Source of the DNA: a virus
Lineage: Duplodnaviria; Heunggongvirae; Uroviricota; Caudoviricetes
DNA: 47,732 bases
Strand: one strand, 5' to 3'
Virus record (IMG/VR): IMGVR_UViG_2562617057_000003
Below are positions 26,565 to 33,189 of this stretch, piece by piece (within the stretch, counting starts at the first letter, position 1; each line of letters opens with the position of its first letter). A program made the translations under genes and the position numbers. A model generated the notes under the pieces. That model made no database searches, was not told the DNA's origin, and saw only the letters and a program-made list of their open reading frames with translations.

Positions 26565-26822
26565 CTACTTCGCTTTTGCTTCCGCTCGCTTACGCCGGCG
26601 CTCTTCTTTCCTCTCGGCTTTTGCCATGTCCATGAATGCCTGCATGATCGAGTTCCGCATCATGTAGCTAACAAAGTGATGATTGACACAGCCGTTGAGG
26701 CGCAGCTGCTCGCCAAACTCATCCACCGAGGCCAATGCTTCCATCATGCCCTTCTCGCCTTTCATGAACTCTGAGAAGTCGCGCCCCGCTCTGGAGGCGC
26801 ATTCAATGACACGATCACTCAT
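26565..26822 (-). CDS. Hypothetical 85-aa protein translationally coupled to the KilA-N gene
   Basis: ATG overlaps the stop of the upstream gene (ATGA); Lys/Arg/Glu-rich C-terminal tail; no family recognised. Confidence 0.55.
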   Translation of the reverse strand: MSDRVIECASRAGRDFSEFMKGEKGMMEALASVDEFGEQLRLNGCVNHHFVSYMMRNSIMQAFMDMAKAERKEERRRKRAEAKAK

Positions 26823-27316
26823 CCCGGAAGCCCGGGGATCGTTATCTGCAGCTGGTTAGCCAGGGAGTTAATCTCAGCGACCAACACTGGCTTCGTATAG
26901 CGCCATGCCGCCAGCCCTTGTCCACAGAAGCTCGCCATATCTTTTTTCTGATCAAACTCATGACACTTCATATTGAGCTGCGCACTTAAGCTGTTGCGAT
27001 GCTGAAGTTCTCCGGTGAAGTAGTCATCCAGGACTTTATAGGCTGCATATTTAAATCCGGGGTTTAGCCATGCTGCATAATCATAAGCAACAAACTTCCC
27101 GCCATATGTTCCACCGTGTACACCGCGCTCAGTAAAAACCACAGATTCGTGGTTTTTCTCCAGCTCGGCTAAGAACTCTTTGGTCTGCTTGTTTCGCAGG
27201 TAGTGGTACGGAGATTCAGATTCACTTTTACCACTGGCTTTCCACATATCAGTGAGGCAGATCATTCCTGATTCATCAACACGGATCGGTGTATTAAAAA
27301 GCGTGATTGCTTTCAT
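26819..27316 (-). CDS. KilA-N domain protein
   Basis: 165 aa; N-terminal MKAITLFNTPIRVDESGMICLTDMWKASGKS...YHYLRNKQTKEFLAEL resembles the KilA-N DNA-binding domain. Confidence 0.7.
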   Translation of the reverse strand: MKAITLFNTPIRVDESGMICLTDMWKASGKSESESPYHYLRNKQTKEFLAELEKNHESVVFTERGVHGGTYGGKFVAYDYAAWLNPGFKYAAYKVLDDYFTGELQHRNSLSAQLNMKCHEFDQKKDMASFCGQGLAAWRYTKPVLVAEINSLANQLQITIPGLPG

Positions 27317-27958: not shown

Positions 27959-28172
27959 ATCACCACCAGCGGATTGCCCAGACCAGAACAGCAATGGACA
28001 CAATACGAATAGCAAAGGCCGCTGCTCTTGTTAAATCCAGACTGGCTGGAGTCTCCACTTCAATGCCTTTCATAATGGACAACCTCAGAAAAAATTTTTT
28101 ATACTTTCTCACAGGGAAAACACCTCCCTACCCATAATTTCTCCCTTGCCTTACTCAAGGTCAGAAAACACA

Positions 28173-28293: not shown

Positions 28294-28827
28294 TTATCTG
28301 TCGATACCCCAGCATGTCAGCGCCGCTTCCTGATCCCGACGAATAACCTGACCGTAACAGTTATTTGAACGAATACGGCAGTCTCTGCCACCATCCTTAA
28401 TCCACCAGCGAATCGCCTCGCATGCGCCCTTACGATCACCGGCATTCAGCCGCTTATAAAACGTCGACGGGAAACACTTACCGGGGCCAATGTTATAGGG
28501 GCAAAATGACGCTATACCCGCTTTTTGTGGTTCGGTCAGTGGTACTTTAATATTGCGCTCCACCCATGCCAGCGCCTTATCACGTTCAATGGCGTTAACC
28601 TGGTCGCATTTTTCCTTCGACAGTTTCATACCGGGAAAAACGGGTTTACCATCCACCGTCGTGGCACCCCGACAGATGGTCCAGATGCCGGAACCATCGC
28701 GGTATGCCGTAGTGTGGTTACCTTCTTTTTCATCCAGAAACTGGTCGAGAATATCAGGCGCAGGCGCACCGATAGCAATCAGTGCCAGAACGGCAGCCGA
28801 CAGGCCATATCTGATTTTTACGTTCAT
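28294..28827 (-). CDS. R: Phage lysozyme (endolysin) with N-terminal signal-anchor/SAR-like segment
   Basis: 177 aa; MNVKIRYGLSAAVLALIAIGAPAPD hydrophobic N-terminus, then ...EGNHTTAYRDGSGIWTICRGATTVDGK... lysozyme motifs; resembles K-12 prophage lysozymes. Confidence 0.92.
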   Translation of the reverse strand: MNVKIRYGLSAAVLALIAIGAPAPDILDQFLDEKEGNHTTAYRDGSGIWTICRGATTVDGKPVFPGMKLSKEKCDQVNAIERDKALAWVERNIKVPLTEPQKAGIASFCPYNIGPGKCFPSTFYKRLNAGDRKGACEAIRWWIKDGGRDCRIRSNNCYGQVIRRDQEAALTCWGIDR

Positions 28828-28940
28828 GGATATTTATCAGGATTTATCGGCTTCAAATCCCCGGATATGTTAAATCTTACCTCGCCAGTGATGGGCACTG
28901 GCGGGAGGAGGATGTCAATCTGATAAACACAGAGGTGACT

Positions 28941-29201
28941 ATGGATTACACAAATCTACCAAAACAAACTTTTGCTGATTTAATCGCACTCAGGCAAGCA
29001 GTCGTAGCTCTAATCAACTTGTTGCCGGAGAAGGAAAAGGAATTAGTTAAAGCGCTTCTTAACAGAACTGCCGCCGATTTTTCATCATATCCACTGACAG
29101 ATGACCTTGCGGACCTTCCTGAATTAATTGCAGCGTCCACCATTAAGCTTACTGAAGAGATTTACCCTCCTCAAAAATCTTCACAAAATTCCTGCGAGTA
29201 A
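28941..29201 (+). CDS. Hypothetical 86-aa acidic protein, convergent to and overlapping the 176-aa ORF
   Basis: ATG at 28941 with RBS AGAGG 5 nt upstream; plus strand inside a minus-strand late operon; no family recognised. Confidence 0.4.
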   Translation: MDYTNLPKQTFADLIALRQAVVALINLLPEKEKELVKALLNRTAADFSSYPLTDDLADLPELIAASTIKLTEEIYPPQKSSQNSCE

Positions 29202-29679
29202 CTTCAATGCAATAATCGTAAAACGCCGCAAACTGCTCATCGCGGCGTTTTTTTTCATCTTCAGAAGGAATCAGCACCGACAATTTTTTCTCCAGTTTTT
29301 CAATGGGCGATTCAATATCATCTTTTTCTGACCGCAATGCCGTCGGTGGCGTCTTCAGAGAACCAGTAATTCTTCCCGGTAGCTTTCCTTTGTAGGTTAT
29401 CCACACATTCTGCGCCTCTAAAATTATGGGGCGCTTTTCCGGCGACTGCTCATCCCCTTCACATAACCCGGCAGCAACATCCAGGAATACCTGTCTGATT
29501 CTCATTCTGGCCGCTGCCTCATAAAACTCCAGCGCGGCACCTTCAACACGGTCCAGCGAGATGTCCAGGTCAAAAATTTCACCGTCAAAGCGTTTTTTGT
29601 CCCGTAACGCTAAAGTTACCGCAACTTTATTCTCAAAATTGCGGATCCCTTTCACAATCAGTTCATAGTTTTGTGTCAT
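29149..29679 (-). CDS. Hypothetical 176-aa protein inserted between holin and endolysin
   Basis: Stop 4 nt before the holin ORF ends; no TM segment, charged C-terminal half; same position as ydfR in K-12 Qin (homology not established). Confidence 0.65.
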   Translation of the reverse strand: MTQNYELIVKGIRNFENKVAVTLALRDKKRFDGEIFDLDISLDRVEGAALEFYEAAARMRIRQVFLDVAAGLCEGDEQSPEKRPIILEAQNVWITYKGKLPGRITGSLKTPPTALRSEKDDIESPIEKLEKKLSVLIPSEDEKKRRDEQFAAFYDYCIEVTRRNFVKIFEEGKSLQ

Positions 29680-29683
29680 TGAA

Positions 29684-29899
29684 TTACTCTCCCCGCGCAG
29701 CCTTACGCTTGTCTTCTCTTATTTTGAAATACAGATTTGTCAGATAAGTCAGAAGCCCCAGAAGCAGACTTCCCAGCACACCAATCGCAGCCCACTGTGA
29801 CGGACTGACCTGATCCAACCACTGCAAAAACCAGTAGCCGGCACTACCTGCTGAGGTGCCATAGGCGACACCCGTTGTTAACTTATCCATGGATTTCAT
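29684..29899 (-). CDS. S: Class II holin / pinholin (phage 21 S-like) with dual-start motif
   Basis: 71 aa [71 protein letters not shown]; two TM segments; M1/M4 dual start. Confidence 0.9.
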
Positions 29900-29966: not shown

Positions 29967-31019
29967 TTATTTCCCCACCAGCTCGTTTATCTCTTTCACT
30001 GTCTGGTTAAACCGCTCTGACTCAAGCTCAACACCTAAGGCCCGACGCCCCAGCGCCATTGCTGCTTTTATTGTGGAACCGGATCCCATAAAAAAATCAG
30101 CAACCAGATCACCAGGTCGACTACTGGCATTGATTATTTGCCTGAGCATATCCGCCGGTTTCTCGCACGGATGTTTACCCGGGTAGAACTGAACGGGCTT
30201 ATGCATCCAGACATCGGTATAAGGCACGGATACTGATACGGAGAAATAGCGCCGGAGAGATTTAAACTCATCCAGCAATTCAGAATATTTGCGATTCAGT
30301 GAATCATAAGATGCCACCAGCTGGTGGTGTGGTTGTTCCAGTTGTTGTTCCTGAAACTTCTCTGCCGCTATATGGGAAAACAGTGCCTGTAACTTCCGAT
30401 AGTCAGCCTCATTCGGCAACTGCCACTGACTGGCACCAAACCAGTGGGAAACCATATTTTTCTTACCTGTGGCTTCGGCAATTTGTTTTGCCGTTATACC
30501 CAGTTCGGCACGAGCATCCCTGAAATACGATATCAGCGGTGCCATTATGTGCTGTTTGAGTTCCCTTTCTTTTGCCGCATAGCCGTCACTTTTGCCGCGA
30601 TATGGCCCCTGGTAATGTTCAGCAAACAGAACGCGCTCTGTGGCAGGAAAATATGCGCGCAGACTTTCTTTATTACACCCATTCCAACGTCCGGACGGCT
30701 TCGCCCAGATGATATGGTTAAGCACGTTGAAACGTTCACGCATCATGATCTCAATATCAGATGCCAGGCGATGCCCACAGAACAGGTAAAGGCTTCCGGC
30801 AGGCTTCAGCACCCGCCAGAACTGCGTCAGACACTGGTCCAGCCATTTCAGGTAATCATCATCGCCCTTCCACTGGTTATCCCAGCCTTCGGGTTTCACT
30901 TTGAAGTATGGCGGGTCTGTGACTATCAGATCGACAGAGTTTTCCGGTAAGGTCTGGATAAATTCCAGGCAATCAGCGTTGATTAACTCACAACTGGATA
31001 TTTTTACAGTATTAATCAT
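29967..31019 (-). CDS. Orphan DNA N6-adenine methyltransferase
   Basis: 350 aa; motif IV DPPY early ([10 protein letters not shown]), AdoMet motif FFMGSGST near the C-terminus; no adjacent restriction endonuclease ORF. Confidence 0.88.
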
Positions 31020-31591: not shown

Positions 31592-32152
31592 TTAAAGCCG
31601 CATCAACCGCTCCACCAGTTGCTCTTTACGGGCAACGATCCACCCGTGTTGCTCCAGATAAAATTTAAACCGTTCCAGAGTGCATACCATCACATCGGCA
31701 GGTACTTTTTCCGTGAAGTCGACCTGACCGTGTTTATCGAAGTGGATCAGTAATGCGCATCCATCATTTTCGATAGATGTGTTTTGTGCCGCTGGTGGTT
31801 GTTTTTGGTTGAAATAACAGTCTTCCAGTTTTTCGAATACTTCCCACGCCTGATCGGTTTCGAGCATTTTGGCGTGACGGGCTGCTCCGCGTTCTGTCCA
31901 GAGTATGAGCTTTCGGACATTTGGGGCGATCGTTTGAAAATCCCTTAAAGAGATTTTCAAATTTTGGAGGTCTGCGCCTTTCGCAATTATGTAGTGCTTC
32001 CCTTCTGCAAATCGCTCTTTATTACGGTGGTGATTTCTATGAATACACTCGACGCTACAGCCATATAGTTTGGCCAGTAACTCTGTAGTGACAACTGGGA
32101 GCTGGTTGTGTGTGATCGGGGAAAGAGTTTCGACAGAAACTTGAGTCGTCAT
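31592..32152 (-). CDS. Antirepressor-like protein (ORF6N-type N-terminal domain, Ant-type C-terminal domain)
   Basis: 186 aa; C-terminal ...ALLIHFDKHGQVDFTEKVPADVMVCTLERFKFYLEQHGW is paralogous to the C-terminus of the antirepressor at 42835-43392. Confidence 0.7.
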   Translation of the reverse strand: MTTQVSVETLSPITHNQLPVVTTELLAKLYGCSVECIHRNHHRNKERFAEGKHYIIAKGADLQNLKISLRDFQTIAPNVRKLILWTERGAARHAKMLETDQAWEVFEKLEDCYFNQKQPPAAQNTSIENDGCALLIHFDKHGQVDFTEKVPADVMVCTLERFKFYLEQHGWIVARKEQLVERLMRL

Positions 32153-32434: not shown

Positions 32435-32821
32435 CTACATAATTCGTTCTACATATCTGTCCATCTCCAGCCGGATATCAAGCATCATCAACATGCCATC
32501 GATAACCCCTTCCGCCTTCTGCAGGCGCTTACCAACACAGGTATCCGAACATCCAAGTTTCCGTGCCAGACTCATAAAAGTCATTCCATATACGTAATAA
32601 TCCACCAGCAAATCGTGCAAATCCTGATTTTTCTTGTTTAACCGGGCCATACAGCCACAAATTATCATTGCATCATCATCAGAACACTGAGGACGTGATT
32701 TCACTTTCGACGGAATTAACCCTTTAAAACCAGCAGCGATCGACGCCCAGGATACATCTTCATGAGTGTTTGCAGCCCAAGCCCCCCACCGTTCCATAAC
32801 CTGCTGAATATCACGCGCCAT
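32435..32821 (-). CDS. Q: Late antiterminator Q (phage 82 / 21 type)
   Basis: [61 protein letters not shown]... zinc-binding Q82-like; ATG 32821 with RBS AGGTG. Confidence 0.88.
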
Positions 32822-32826
32822 CGTTA

Positions 32827-33189
32827 TCACCTGTGATTTCGTAAATCTTCACGCCCAGCCGCCCCCCCAGGAACGCGCTGACCGCGCACAATATTGATTT
32901 CATCAAACTGCTCGTCGTCTATGAGAAGTCCGGCATGCGTCAGCGCATCCAGTGGTGCTTTCAGGATATTGTCCAGGTCACGACGACGTTTATCCGGTGG
33001 CTCTGCAATAATCTTTATCGCCAGCCTTCCGGACAGGTTTAATTTCAGCCGCTGCTGGCGAACAATAAGCGCCACATCACGGCGATAACGCTCACCGGCT
33101 TTTGATACAAAATATGTGCTGCCACGACGTCGCCAGTAAGTGTTCACCGTTGGCGGGTAAGGCAAAACAAATTCTATGCGTTCAGTCAT
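32827..33189 (-). CDS. rusA: RusA Holliday-junction resolvase
   Basis: 120 aa, ...[13 protein letters not shown]...[30 protein letters not shown] RusA motifs. Confidence 0.9.

What the first reader, a model, noticed from the sequence alone, without database searches (positions are those of the whole stretch)
28828..29683. Holin and endolysin are split by an 850-bp insert carrying two convergent, overlapping ORFs of unknown function
In lambdoid lysis cassettes the holin and endolysin genes normally abut. Here a 176-aa ORF on the late strand (29149-29679) and an oppositely oriented 86-aa acidic ORF (28941-29201, good RBS) sit between them, with 53 nt of 3' overlap. I cannot assign either to a family from sequence. 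A convergent pair inside a Q-dependent late operon is unusual and could be a moron such as a lysis-timing modulator, superinfection exclusion function or toxin/antidote pair.
Basis: partly seen in the sequence, partly recalled or inferred. Interest (0 to 1): 0.6.

Follow-up and report, generated by a model that had tools for sequence, protein, structure and literature searches.

The report
Convergent gene pair in lysis cassette
Between the holin and endolysin genes of this E. coli prophage lies a long form of the very common YdfR (DUF1327) protein, and its extra tail overlaps, end to end, a real but uncharacterised 86-residue gene on the opposite strand; the pair recurs as a unit in other Escherichia and Salmonella phages, so it is a small mobile two-gene cassette of unknown function.

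Summary
ORFs at 29149-29679(-) and 28941-29201(+) converge and overlap by 53 nt between an S21-type holin and a SAR endolysin.

The framing needs correction. The 176-aa ORF is a YdfR/DUF1327 protein (Pfam E 4e-40). A ydfR gene in this slot is normal: its core matches 4045 of 5426 complete E. coli genomes. Only about 440 nt (28904-29343) are extra. They encode a C-terminal helical tail ("module A") plus the 86-aa ORF, and occur in 364 genomes.

The 86-aa ORF is a real gene (PHROG 2572). Three lineages 41-57% identical show pN/pS 0.43-0.57 in the only open frame. All have a Shine-Dalgarno site. AlphaFold predicts a three-helix bundle. A GC hairpin follows the stop codon, and in this window it carries a run of eight T.

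The tail-plus-ORF pair keeps the same 53-59 nt overlap in all three lineages. In Salmonella phages module A is a stand-alone 73-aa gene after the spanin. A second, unrelated tail/ORF pair (module B/orf6) occupies the same slot in Stx phages.

Function is unassigned: Pfam, PADLOC, PDB and fold searches gave nothing. My best guess is a moron-like gene whose product partners module A, with the two expressed reciprocally. Interest is moderate.

The parts
29684..29899 (-). Class II (phage 21 S-type) holin, 71 aa, with MKSM dual-start motif. It forms the upstream boundary of the slot, and its 3' end carries the SD (GGAGAG) for the ydfR-like gene.
   Evidence: PF04971 E 4.7e-35; PHROG 20/9876 holin; sequence
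29344..29679 (-). YdfR/DUF1327 core, residues 1-112 of the 176-aa protein. Residues 1-73 are predicted with confidence as three beta strands plus a long helix.
   Evidence: PF07041 E 4.4e-40, 136 bits against a cut-off of 25. AF2 pLDDT is 71-89 for residues 1-70. The core matches 4045 of 5426 E. coli genomes. The first 72 residues of Qin YdfR bind the RNase E N-terminal half (PMC13232886).
29149..29343 (-). C-terminal extension of the YdfR-like protein, residues 113-176: a heptad-like linker plus 'module A' (...EKKRRDEQFAAFYDYCIEVTRRNFVKIFEEGKSLQ). Its last 53 nt overlap the 3' end of the small ORF.
   Evidence: The extension is absent from the common 114-116-aa forms. It is homologous to a stand-alone 73-aa gene in Salmonella phages and to the C-termini of lineage C proteins. 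The 176-aa and 183-aa forms differ by exactly 7 residues. AF2 predicts helices 127-136 and 140-174, but at low pLDDT.
28941..29201 (+). 86-aa gene (PHROG 2572). The product is acidic (pI 4.6) and is predicted to be a three-helix bundle. It runs convergent to the late operon.
   Evidence: PHROG 2572 E 4e-53, full length. Remote homologues are 41-57% identical. pN/pS is 0.43-0.57 and this is the only open frame. AF2 mean pLDDT is 73.7 with helices 8-25, 30-48 and 59-74.
28931..28935 (+). Shine-Dalgarno sequence (AGAGG) 5 nt upstream of ATG 28941.
   Evidence: Sequence. Lineages B and C have TAAGGA at equivalent spacing.
29220..29255 (+). Terminator-like hairpin, AAAACGCCGC-N12-GCGGCGTTTT followed by TTTT, starting 19 nt after the small ORF's stop. 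It is embedded in the codons for KKRRDEQFAAF of module A. It is potentially bidirectional but weaker on the - strand (UUUUAC).
   Evidence: Fold energy -14.6 kcal/mol on the + strand. The 8-bp core pairs in all 6 alignment rows that represent loci with the small ORF; there is one G-C to A-U double change and one G-U. The two recombinants that lack the small ORF each have a mismatch.
28830..28876 (.). Conserved leader block, ATATTTATCAGGATTTATC...GGATATGTT. It is also the 5' leader of the endolysin gene on the - strand. It contains the only positionally conserved sigma-70-like site for the small ORF: -35 TTTATC at 28843-28848, a 17-nt spacer, and -10 TATGTT at 28866-28871.
   Evidence: Identity between lineages A and B is 72-79%, although in B no endolysin gene follows; neighbouring synonymous sites differ at 57-66%. 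The PWM score of 7.3 is no better than the best site in shuffled sequence, so this is a candidate only.
28883..28903 (+). Hairpin in the 5' untranslated region of the small ORF: CGCCAGTG-ATGGG-CACTGGCG.
   Evidence: Sequence. A hairpin of different sequence sits at the same place in lineages B and C and before orf6. The majority allele of lineage A has one mismatch.
28294..28827 (-). Endolysin (lysozyme family) with an N-terminal SAR-like Gly/Ala-rich hydrophobic segment. It forms the downstream boundary of the slot.
   Evidence: PF00959 E 1.4e-24; PHROG 7 endolysin; translation
28946..29143 (-). 65-aa antisense ORF inside the small gene, judged an artefact. Its third codon positions coincide with those of the + ORF.
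   Evidence: It has no SD. In other lineages this frame has 2-3 stops and different start codons, and its BLOSUM scores are lower than for the + frame (143, 90 and 182 against 169, 145 and 222).

Best explanation
The locus is the ordinary S-ydfR-R lysis cassette of E. coli lambdoid prophages, carrying a roughly 440-nt accessory cassette between the YdfR core and the endolysin leader. The cassette holds two genes that face each other.

On the late strand is 'module A', a helical tail of about 65 residues, probably coiled-coil. Here it is fused in frame to the RNase E-binding YdfR core, so it is made only from the Q-dependent late transcript.

On the other strand is an 86-residue acidic three-helix-bundle protein. 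It has its own ribosome-binding site and a hairpin plus eight T that ends its transcript inside module A.

Shown: both are coding. The pair and its 53-59-nt tail-to-tail overlap are kept in three lineages that have diverged to saturation at synonymous sites. The pair moves as a unit: it is fused to YdfR twice, and it stands alone after the spanin in Salmonella phages.

Inferred: the small gene is transcribed on its own, moron-like, from a weak promoter in the shared 115-nt leader while the late operon is silent. On induction, the strong late transcription runs antisense across it and shuts it off. Its protein binds or antagonises module A. Together the two would form a cognate effector/partner pair with reciprocal expression. 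The geometry resembles that of pore-forming colicin operons, where the immunity gene lies on the opposite strand between the induced gene and the lysis gene.
For: Family assignments: PF07041 and PHROG 2091/2572.

The core is common and the module is rare: 4045 against 364 of 5426 genomes. S-R interval classes are 418 nt against 856/877 nt.

The small ORF is coding:
- It is the only open frame and has the highest BLOSUM score.
- Between lineages dN/dS is 0.27-0.35, and differences by codon position run 3>1>2.
- pN/pS is 0.43-0.57 with bootstrap P<0.001.
- An SD is present in all lineages.
- AF2 gives a three-helix bundle at pLDDT 73.7.

Module A is coding: the two lineage B alleles differ at 12, 3 and 10 sites by codon position. 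In lineage B it is a separate 73-aa gene whose start overlaps the spanin stop.

The pair is conserved in three contexts with 53, 59 and 59 nt of overlap. All 125 loci with the small ORF also have module A.

A hairpin follows the stop in all lineages. It forms a U8 terminator here and is degraded in the two recombinants that lost the small ORF.

A second, unrelated cargo (module B + orf6) has the same layout in the same slot, and the two co-occur in 42 of 42 loci.

The leader block is conserved in lineage B without an adjacent endolysin gene.

Qin YdfR residues 1-72 bind the RNase E N-terminal half and co-purify with RNA (PMC13232886). Opposite-strand immunity genes in pore-forming colicin operons are described in PMC4436062.
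Against: No expression data exist. The promoter candidate scores no better than shuffled sequence.

Support for the hairpin rests on one compensatory change and is not statistically significant. Lineages B and C lack a good U tract.

Co-occurrence of module A with the small ORF is partly trivial, because they physically overlap.

Module A evolves under weaker constraint (dN/dS 0.4-0.9) and its AF2 confidence is low.

About 14 of 103 IMG/VR loci carry a start-codon loss, a nonsense mutation or a frameshift in the small ORF, so it is dispensable in many prophages.

No homology or fold match supports any particular biochemical role.
Confidence: 0.4

Rival explanations
1. Independent moron. The 86-aa gene is a self-contained, lysogen-expressed accessory gene whose target is a host or foreign-phage component and has nothing to do with module A. 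The late-strand tail stays linked only because the small gene's terminator and 3' end lie inside it.
For: The small ORF is under tighter constraint than module A (dN/dS about 0.3 against 0.4-0.9). The most conserved stretch of module A (KRRDE..AAF) is the hairpin itself. The gene is present or absent between otherwise homologous phages. Its orientation and position next to lysis genes recall lambda bor (my own knowledge).
Against: Module A exists as a separately initiated 73-aa gene in lineage B and shows a coding-type substitution pattern. Its similarity extends about 30 residues upstream of the hairpin. The module B/orf6 cargo has the same paired layout.
Confidence: 0.3
2. RNA-level device. 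The convergent transcript acts mainly as a cis-antisense RNA to the untranslated 321-nt stretch of the late mRNA between ydfR and R. It would create a duplex for RNase III or RNase E processing, uncoupling holin and endolysin mRNA levels and so tuning lysis timing. The peptide would be secondary.
For: The + transcript would be fully complementary to the late mRNA between ydfR and R. Hairpins are conserved at both ends of the unit. The neighbouring YdfR core binds RNase E and co-purifies with RNA. An antisense RNA over an endolysin gene has been reported for phage PAK_P4 (PMC12197685).
Against: A pure RNA function does not explain the protein-level purifying selection, the conserved SD and stop, or the confident fold of the 86-aa product. 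No Rfam family reaches threshold.
Confidence: 0.12
3. Toxin-antitoxin or abortive-infection pair. Module A, or the YdfR-long protein, is toxic and the 86-aa acidic protein is its antidote.
Confidence: 0.08
4. The 86-aa ORF is a non-functional antisense or intergenic ORF that gene callers pick up.
For: The family is tiny and confined to Escherichia and Salmonella. PGAP leaves it unannotated in some genomes. Some alleles are broken. Within lineage A, dN/dS is 0.4-0.7 on only 13-16 substitutions.
Against: The between-lineage coding signature, the conserved SD, start and stop, the absence of stops only in this frame, and the AF2 fold all argue against it.
Confidence: 0.05

Closest known systems
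YdfR of the E. coli K-12 Qin prophage (Pfam DUF1327, PF07041)
   Same: The N-terminal 112 residues are homologous. The position is the same, between a class II holin (essQ/essD type) and the endolysin. The confidently folded region (1-73) coincides with the 72 residues of Qin YdfR that bind the RNase E N-terminal half.
   Different: K-12 YdfR is 103 aa and the common form is 114-116 aa. This one is 176 aa, with a C-terminal helical module that overlaps a convergent gene. NCBI's PGAP pipeline marks such long forms as 'incomplete' pseudogenes.
Lambda-type morons, for example bor (opposite-strand gene next to Rz); moron concept of Hendrix and colleagues, from my own knowledge
   Same: An extra gene is inserted between conserved late genes. 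It is present or absent among relatives. It has its own translation signals and a terminator, and it is oriented so that it can be expressed while the late operon is silent.
   Different: Bor is a lipoprotein and has no partner gene. Here the product is a cytoplasmic acidic helical bundle. Its 3' end overlaps a co-inherited late-strand coding module. The promoter is unproven.
Pore-forming colicin operons (cxa, opposite-strand cxi, cxl) (PMC4436062)
   Same: A modular induced protein carries an exchangeable C-terminal module. It is followed by a small gene on the opposite strand and then by the lysis function. Module type and small-gene type go together: A with the 86-aa ORF, B with orf6.
   Different: There is no sequence or fold relationship. 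Colicin immunity proteins are integral membrane proteins, whereas this protein has no hydrophobic segment. No toxicity or export of the YdfR-long protein is known. This is an analogy of layout only.
orf5/orf6 of Stx2-converting phage 86 and relatives (PHROG 1853 plus 'module B')
   Same: It occupies the same slot between the YdfR core and R, with the same R-leader block and 5' hairpin. The design is the same: a late-strand C-terminal module plus a convergent small ORF, followed by a hairpin.
   Different: Both components are unrelated in sequence to those here (104-aa ORF; module of about 150 residues). The two coding regions do not overlap (a 10-nt gap).
Convergent type I toxin-antitoxin loci of prophages (3'-overlapping sense/antisense pairs; from my own knowledge)
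   Same: Convergent transcription with tens of nucleotides of 3' overlap, located in a prophage.
   Different: Both partners here encode conserved soluble proteins. There is no small hydrophobic toxin and no evidence of a non-coding antitoxin RNA.

Membership tests
YdfR / DUF1327 (PF07041) | Match to the Pfam model above its gathering score | tested here: met
   136.2 bits against a cut-off of 25, E 4.4e-40, residues 1-112
YdfR / DUF1327 (PF07041) | Gene located between the class II holin and the endolysin of a lambdoid lysis cassette | tested here: met
   Holin at 29684-29899 and endolysin at 28294-28827. The arrangement is the same in K-12-type and phage records.
YdfR / DUF1327 (PF07041) | Single-domain protein of about 100-116 residues | tested here: not met
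   176 aa. Residues 113-176 lie outside the Pfam domain and are absent from the common 114-116-aa forms.
YdfR / DUF1327 (PF07041) | Binding to the catalytic N-terminal half of RNase E, reported for Qin YdfR | not testable with these tools
   Only literature on the K-12 homologue is available (PMC13232886).
PHROG 2572 (unknown function) | Full-length match to the family profile | tested here: met
   E 4.1e-53, residues 3-88 of the 88-aa reading aligned to profile positions 1-86 of 86. Lineages B and C also match.
DUF1823 (label used for this ORF in GenBank records of the PhiR phages) | Match to PF08853 above its gathering score | tested here: not met
   13.6 bits against a cut-off of 25, E 0.08. 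Lineage B and C homologues give no hit.
Moron (autonomous accessory gene in a late operon) | Present or absent between otherwise homologous neighbours | tested here: met
   418-nt against 856/877-nt S-R intervals. The core matches 4045 genomes and the module 364.
Moron (autonomous accessory gene in a late operon) | Own intrinsic terminator | tested here: met
   A 10-bp stem plus U8 at 29220-29255(+), -14.6 kcal/mol. The U tract is weaker in lineages B and C.
Moron (autonomous accessory gene in a late operon) | Own promoter | tested here: inconclusive
   TTTATC-17-TATGTT is positionally conserved in three lineages. The consensus scan does not detect it, and its PWM score equals the median best score in shuffles.
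Moron (autonomous accessory gene in a late operon) | Expression from the repressed prophage | not testable with these tools
   No transcriptome data are accessible. No paper mentions the protein accessions or the PHROG identifiers.
Known toxin-antitoxin or anti-phage defence systems | Match of either protein to a known toxin, antitoxin or defence model | tested here: not met
   PADLOC gives 0 families. Pfam and NCBIfam give none beyond DUF1327.
Pore-forming-colicin-type effector/immunity layout | Small gene on the opposite strand between the induced modular gene and the lysis gene | tested here: met
   Gene order S, ydfR-module A (-), 86-aa ORF (+), R (-). The comparison is with PMC4436062.
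Pore-forming-colicin-type effector/immunity layout | The immunity protein is an integral membrane protein, and the effector is a pore-forming or otherwise toxic domain | tested here: not met
   The 86-aa protein is acidic and predicted as a soluble three-helix bundle. Module A matches no toxin.

The most novel reading that the evidence does not exclude
The slot between the YdfR core and the endolysin would be a swap site for cognate two-component cargo. An exchangeable C-terminal effector module (A, B, ...) would be displayed on the RNase E-binding YdfR scaffold and made only late in infection. Each module would be matched by a counter-transcribed small protein made in the lysogen that neutralises it. 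This would be a polymorphic effector/immunity system built into phage lysis cassettes. It could act on RNA metabolism, or on the lysis of related superinfecting phages.
Probability: 0.12. Interest if true: 0.75.

Novelty: new variant of a known kind. Interest (0 to 1): 0.4.

Why it matters
YdfR is one of the most widespread uncharacterised prophage genes of E. coli; its core matches three quarters of complete genomes. It has only just been linked to RNase E.

This analysis shows that the family is modular. Its long forms carry exchangeable tails, each tied to a counter-transcribed small gene. That gives a concrete handle on its function.

It also flags an annotation problem. PGAP calls the long forms truncated pseudogenes and often omits the small gene.

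The cassette is present in viable temperate phages (2H10, PhiR63_1, PhiR12, PhiR5_1) and in an E. coli B laboratory derivative. Expression, interaction and lysis-timing experiments are therefore straightforward.

If the pair proves to be a cognate effector/partner system, it would add a new kind of accessory module to phage lysis cassettes. If not, it is one more moron of unknown role.

Tried and rejected
- DUF1823 label for the small ORF: below threshold and not reproduced in the other lineages.
- PADLOC and NCBIfam: no hits for either protein or for the alternative cargo.
- Rfam: only a sub-threshold GcvB match (16.9 bits against 42, E 0.76) over the terminator.
- PDB sequence profiles: nothing.
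- afdb50 library: unavailable.
- Within-lineage dN/dS: too few substitutions to decide.
- Formal covariation test of the terminator hairpin: one compensatory pair, not significant.
- Consensus promoter scan and my own PWM scan: no significant promoter.
- Scans of species-representative genomes with module A and with the small protein: only E. coli plus one spurious hit.
- The TPR/CHAT protein P0140, which matched the small protein in 8 repeats: judged a compositional, helix-hairpin resemblance and not homology.
- The 65-aa antisense ORF at 28946-29143(-): rejected as an artefact.
Full report
**The observation.** The window is an E. coli lambdoid prophage whose late genes run on the - strand. 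Its closest match is strain CFSAN029787, 99.8% identical over the region. One is a 176-aa ORF at 29149-29679(-). The other lies on the + strand from ATG 28941 (86 aa; an alternative GTG at 28935 gives 88 aa) to the stop at 29199-29201. They overlap by 53 nt at their 3' ends. AGAGG lies 5 nt before the ATG. The flanking genes are a phage-21-type class II holin (PF04971, 29684-29899, MKSM dual start) and a lysozyme-family endolysin with a SAR-like N-terminus (PF00959, 28294-28827). A DNA methyltransferase gene lies immediately upstream of the holin, and Rz/Rz1 spanin genes lie downstream of R.

**Identity of the 176-aa ORF.** It is a YdfR/DUF1327 protein: PF07041, E 4.4e-40, residues 1-112. It matches PHROG 2091 over its full length, E 1.6e-103. 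The ydfR core of the query matches 4045 of 5426 complete E. coli genomes. In a sample of IMG/VR loci the commonest short S-R interval is 418 nt, which holds a 114-116-aa ydfR and about 70 nt of R leader. What is unusual here is the length. The family comes in size classes of 103, 114-116, 176, 183, 211, 268 and 296 aa, which share the core and differ in what follows the motif ...KLPGxITGSLKxPP. Relative to the short form, the window has about 440 extra nucleotides (28904-29343). These are found in 364 of 5426 genomes (281 with at least 80% coverage) and in 8 of 50,697 phage records, all of them E. coli temperate phages. The extra DNA encodes residues 113-176 of the protein, which I call module A, and the whole of the small ORF. 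AlphaFold2 is confident only for residues 1-73, three strands plus a long helix. It draws residues 127-174 as helices at low confidence. The 176-aa and 183-aa variants differ by exactly one heptad, which fits a coiled-coil-like tail. The only functional data on the family come from a 2026 study. In it, Qin YdfR bound the N-terminal catalytic half of RNase E in two-hybrid and pull-down assays through its first 72 residues, and it co-purified with RNA (PMC13232886). Those 72 residues correspond to the confidently folded domain here.

**Is the 86-aa ORF a gene?** It matches PHROG 2572 over its full length, E 4e-53. It has no Pfam, NCBIfam or PADLOC match. The 'DUF1823' label in some GenBank records rests on a sub-threshold hit (13.6 bits against 25) that the more distant homologues do not reproduce. 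Word-based searches found only near-identical E. coli proteins, and within that group there are too few substitutions to judge selection. An exhaustive HMMER scan of 1.84 billion representatives added two true remote homologues, of 93 aa (57% identity over the matched stretch) and 89 aa (41%). A profile search showed that the whole family is confined to Escherichia and Salmonella. With these three lineages the coding test is clear:
- The annotated frame is the only one open from end to end, and it has the highest BLOSUM score in every comparison (169, 145 and 222, against 143, 90 and 182 for the next-best frame).
- Differences by codon position run 3>1>2, and dN/dS is 0.27-0.35.
- pN/pS is 0.43-0.57, and none of 1000 bootstraps reaches pN>=pS.

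The runner-up is the antisense frame whose third positions coincide with those of the + frame. It contains stops, has no SD and starts at different places, so the 65-aa ORF at 28946-29143(-) is an artefact. All three lineages keep an SD (AGAGG or TAAGGA) at proper spacing. All products are acidic (pI 4.5-4.6). AlphaFold2 gives a three-helix bundle at mean pLDDT 73.7. The gene is dispensable in some prophages: among 103 IMG/VR loci, 11 have ATG changed to ACG, 2 have a nonsense codon and 1 has a frameshift.

**The pair is a unit.** The contigs that carry the remote homologues are the most informative result.
- Lineage B is from Salmonella prophages. There the 93-aa ORF converges on, and overlaps by 59 nt, a stand-alone 73-aa gene (...EQKRRDENEAALYG...RNFQKLKSTQQG). 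That gene is homologous to module A, and its start overlaps the stop of a DUF2514 spanin gene. The pair lies between the spanin and the small terminase subunit, and no YdfR core is present.
- Lineage C is from E. coli. There a YdfR core of about 65 residues is joined to a different middle segment and to a module-A-like end (174 or 243 aa). This again overlaps a 93-aa ORF by 59 nt, between S and R.

So the tail-to-tail pair, with its overlap, has been kept while synonymous sites have saturated (dS above 1). It has been fused to YdfR at two different junctions, and it also exists free-standing in another slot of the lysis region. In my sample every one of 125 loci with the small ORF also has module A. 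The two loci with module A but no small ORF are recombinants in which other cargo has replaced it. Because the two genes overlap physically, the co-occurrence on its own is weak evidence. The conserved geometry across three contexts is the stronger point. Module A is itself coding, since the two lineage B alleles differ at 12, 3 and 10 sites by codon position, but it is less constrained than the small ORF (dN/dS 0.4-0.9).

**Signals around the small gene.** Nineteen nucleotides after its stop there is a hairpin, AAAACGCCGC-N12-GCGGCGTTTT, followed by TTTT (29220-29255, -14.6 kcal/mol). On the + strand this is a canonical intrinsic terminator. The scan tool missed it because its loop exceeds 8 nt. 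The hairpin lies inside the codons for KKRRDEQFAAF. Its 8-bp core pairs in all six alignment rows that represent loci with the small ORF. Lineage C has one G-C to A-U double change, which also alters the encoded residues. One allele has a G-U pair, which is tolerated only in the + strand RNA. The two recombinants that lost the small ORF each have a mismatch. Formally the covariation is not significant, and lineages B and C have poor U tracts.

Upstream, lineages A, B and C share only about 115 nt. The first 47 nt (ATATTTATCAGGxTTTATC...GGxTATxGT) are 72-79% identical between A and B, although no endolysin gene follows in B; adjacent synonymous sites differ at 57-66%. This block contains the only positionally conserved sigma-70-like site (TTTATC-17-TATGTT, 28843-28871). 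Its score is no better than the best site in shuffled sequence, so the promoter remains a candidate. Each lineage also has a hairpin in the 5' untranslated region, of different sequence.

**A second cargo in the same slot.** In Stx2 phage 86 and its relatives, the same R leader and 5' hairpin are followed by a different convergent ORF (orf6, 104 aa, PHROG 1853). This ORF faces a different late-strand C-terminal module (module B, about 150 residues), which is attached either to the YdfR core or to a module A remnant. orf6 and module B co-occur in 42 of 42 loci. A long hairpin follows the orf6 stop and shows an A-T to C-G compensatory change. A third phage has yet another convergent ORF of up to 233 aa in the slot. 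The slot between the YdfR core and R is therefore a swap site for convergent cargo. In both well-sampled cases the cargo is a late-strand tail plus a counter-oriented small gene.

**Function.** Homology and fold searches gave nothing usable.
- PADLOC, Pfam and NCBIfam: no informative hits.
- PDB sequence profiles: nothing.

I therefore commit, at modest confidence, to the reading that best fits the anatomy. The small gene is transcribed on its own while the late operon is off. Q-driven late transcription then runs antisense across it. Its product acts on module A or on the YdfR-long protein. This yields a partner pair with reciprocal expression. The layout parallels pore-forming colicin operons, where the immunity gene lies on the opposite strand between the induced modular gene and the lysis gene (PMC4436062). 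This is an analogy of arrangement only: the small protein is soluble and no toxicity is known. The main rival is an independent moron whose linkage to module A is only physical. Less likely are an RNA-level role in processing of the S-R late mRNA, a toxin-antitoxin pair, or a non-functional ORF.

**Verdict.** The finding is real but largely ordinary in its headline. The holin and endolysin are 'split' by the standard ydfR gene. The new part is the recognition of a conserved, mobile, convergent two-gene cassette (module A plus PHROG 2572), fused here to YdfR, and of a cargo-swap slot in this lysis cassette. I found no paper that describes it. Interest is moderate (0.4). It is a new variant of known kinds: the YdfR family and morons in late operons.

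Noticed in passing
window 27960-28112 (-): A 50-aa ORF with a hydrophobic C-terminus (PHROG 4493, unknown function, E 7e-24) sits in a 278-nt gap between the endolysin and Rz. In the closest genome, CFSAN029787, R and the spanin gene abut. This is a second accessory ORF inside the same lysis cassette.
   Followed up: partly
L004 1501-1628 and L005 1501-1627 (Stx phages); homologous to window 28828-28940: Before orf6, the shared 5' hairpin (CGCCAGyGGT..CACTGGCG) is followed by TTTTT on the + strand, so it looks like a terminator or attenuator just upstream of the SD. In the window the same hairpin is followed by GGAGGAGG instead.
   Followed up: partly
L183 9517-9852; L006 2114-2455; L184 2962-3297: NCBI's PGAP pipeline annotates the long YdfR forms as 'incomplete; missing C-terminus' pseudogenes, and in CFSAN029787 it does not call the 86-aa gene. 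This is probably an artefact of a family model built on the short form.
   Followed up: yes
L184 (E. coli AS19, a B-strain derivative), 2538-2798 (+): The cassette lies in the Qin-like prophage of an E. coli B laboratory derivative, in the order essD, ydfR-long, 86-aa gene (WP_001557934.1), rrrQ, rzpQ. Common B strains may therefore be natural carriers and a ready test bed.
   Followed up: partly
window 29079-29256 (+): A sub-threshold Rfam match to GcvB (16.9 bits, gathering score 42, E 0.76) covers the 3' part of the small ORF and its terminator. It is probably driven by the terminator hairpin.
   Followed up: no
L003 1562-2263 (+) (Stx1a phage Stx1_14040): A different convergent ORF of up to 233 aa, with no Pfam, PHROG or PADLOC match, occupies the same slot. 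It overlaps a 263-aa YdfR-module A read-through ORF. This is a third cargo type.
   Followed up: partly
window 28941 (ATG); loci L087-L092 and others: In 11-12 IMG/VR loci, including those whose YdfR core is identical to the window's, the start codon is ACG. That leaves only the poorly spaced GTG at 28935. Two loci have Q19stop and one has a frameshift. The small gene is decaying in part of the population.
   Followed up: yes
window 29967-31019 (-), 31592-32152 (-), 32435-32830 (-), 26819-27316 (-): The late-region context is as follows. An N6/N4 DNA methyltransferase gene lies directly upstream of the holin, where the closest genome has four tRNA genes between them. There are also an anti-repressor-like gene, a Q-like antiterminator, and a Rha/anti-repressor-like gene downstream of Rz.
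   Followed up: no
protein P0140 (975 aa, TPR/CHAT-like) against the 86-aa protein: HMMER aligned residues 14-67 of the small protein to eight consecutive TPR-like repeats (E 1e-9). This suggests that helices 1-2 form a TPR-like helical hairpin. I judged it a resemblance and not homology.
   Followed up: no
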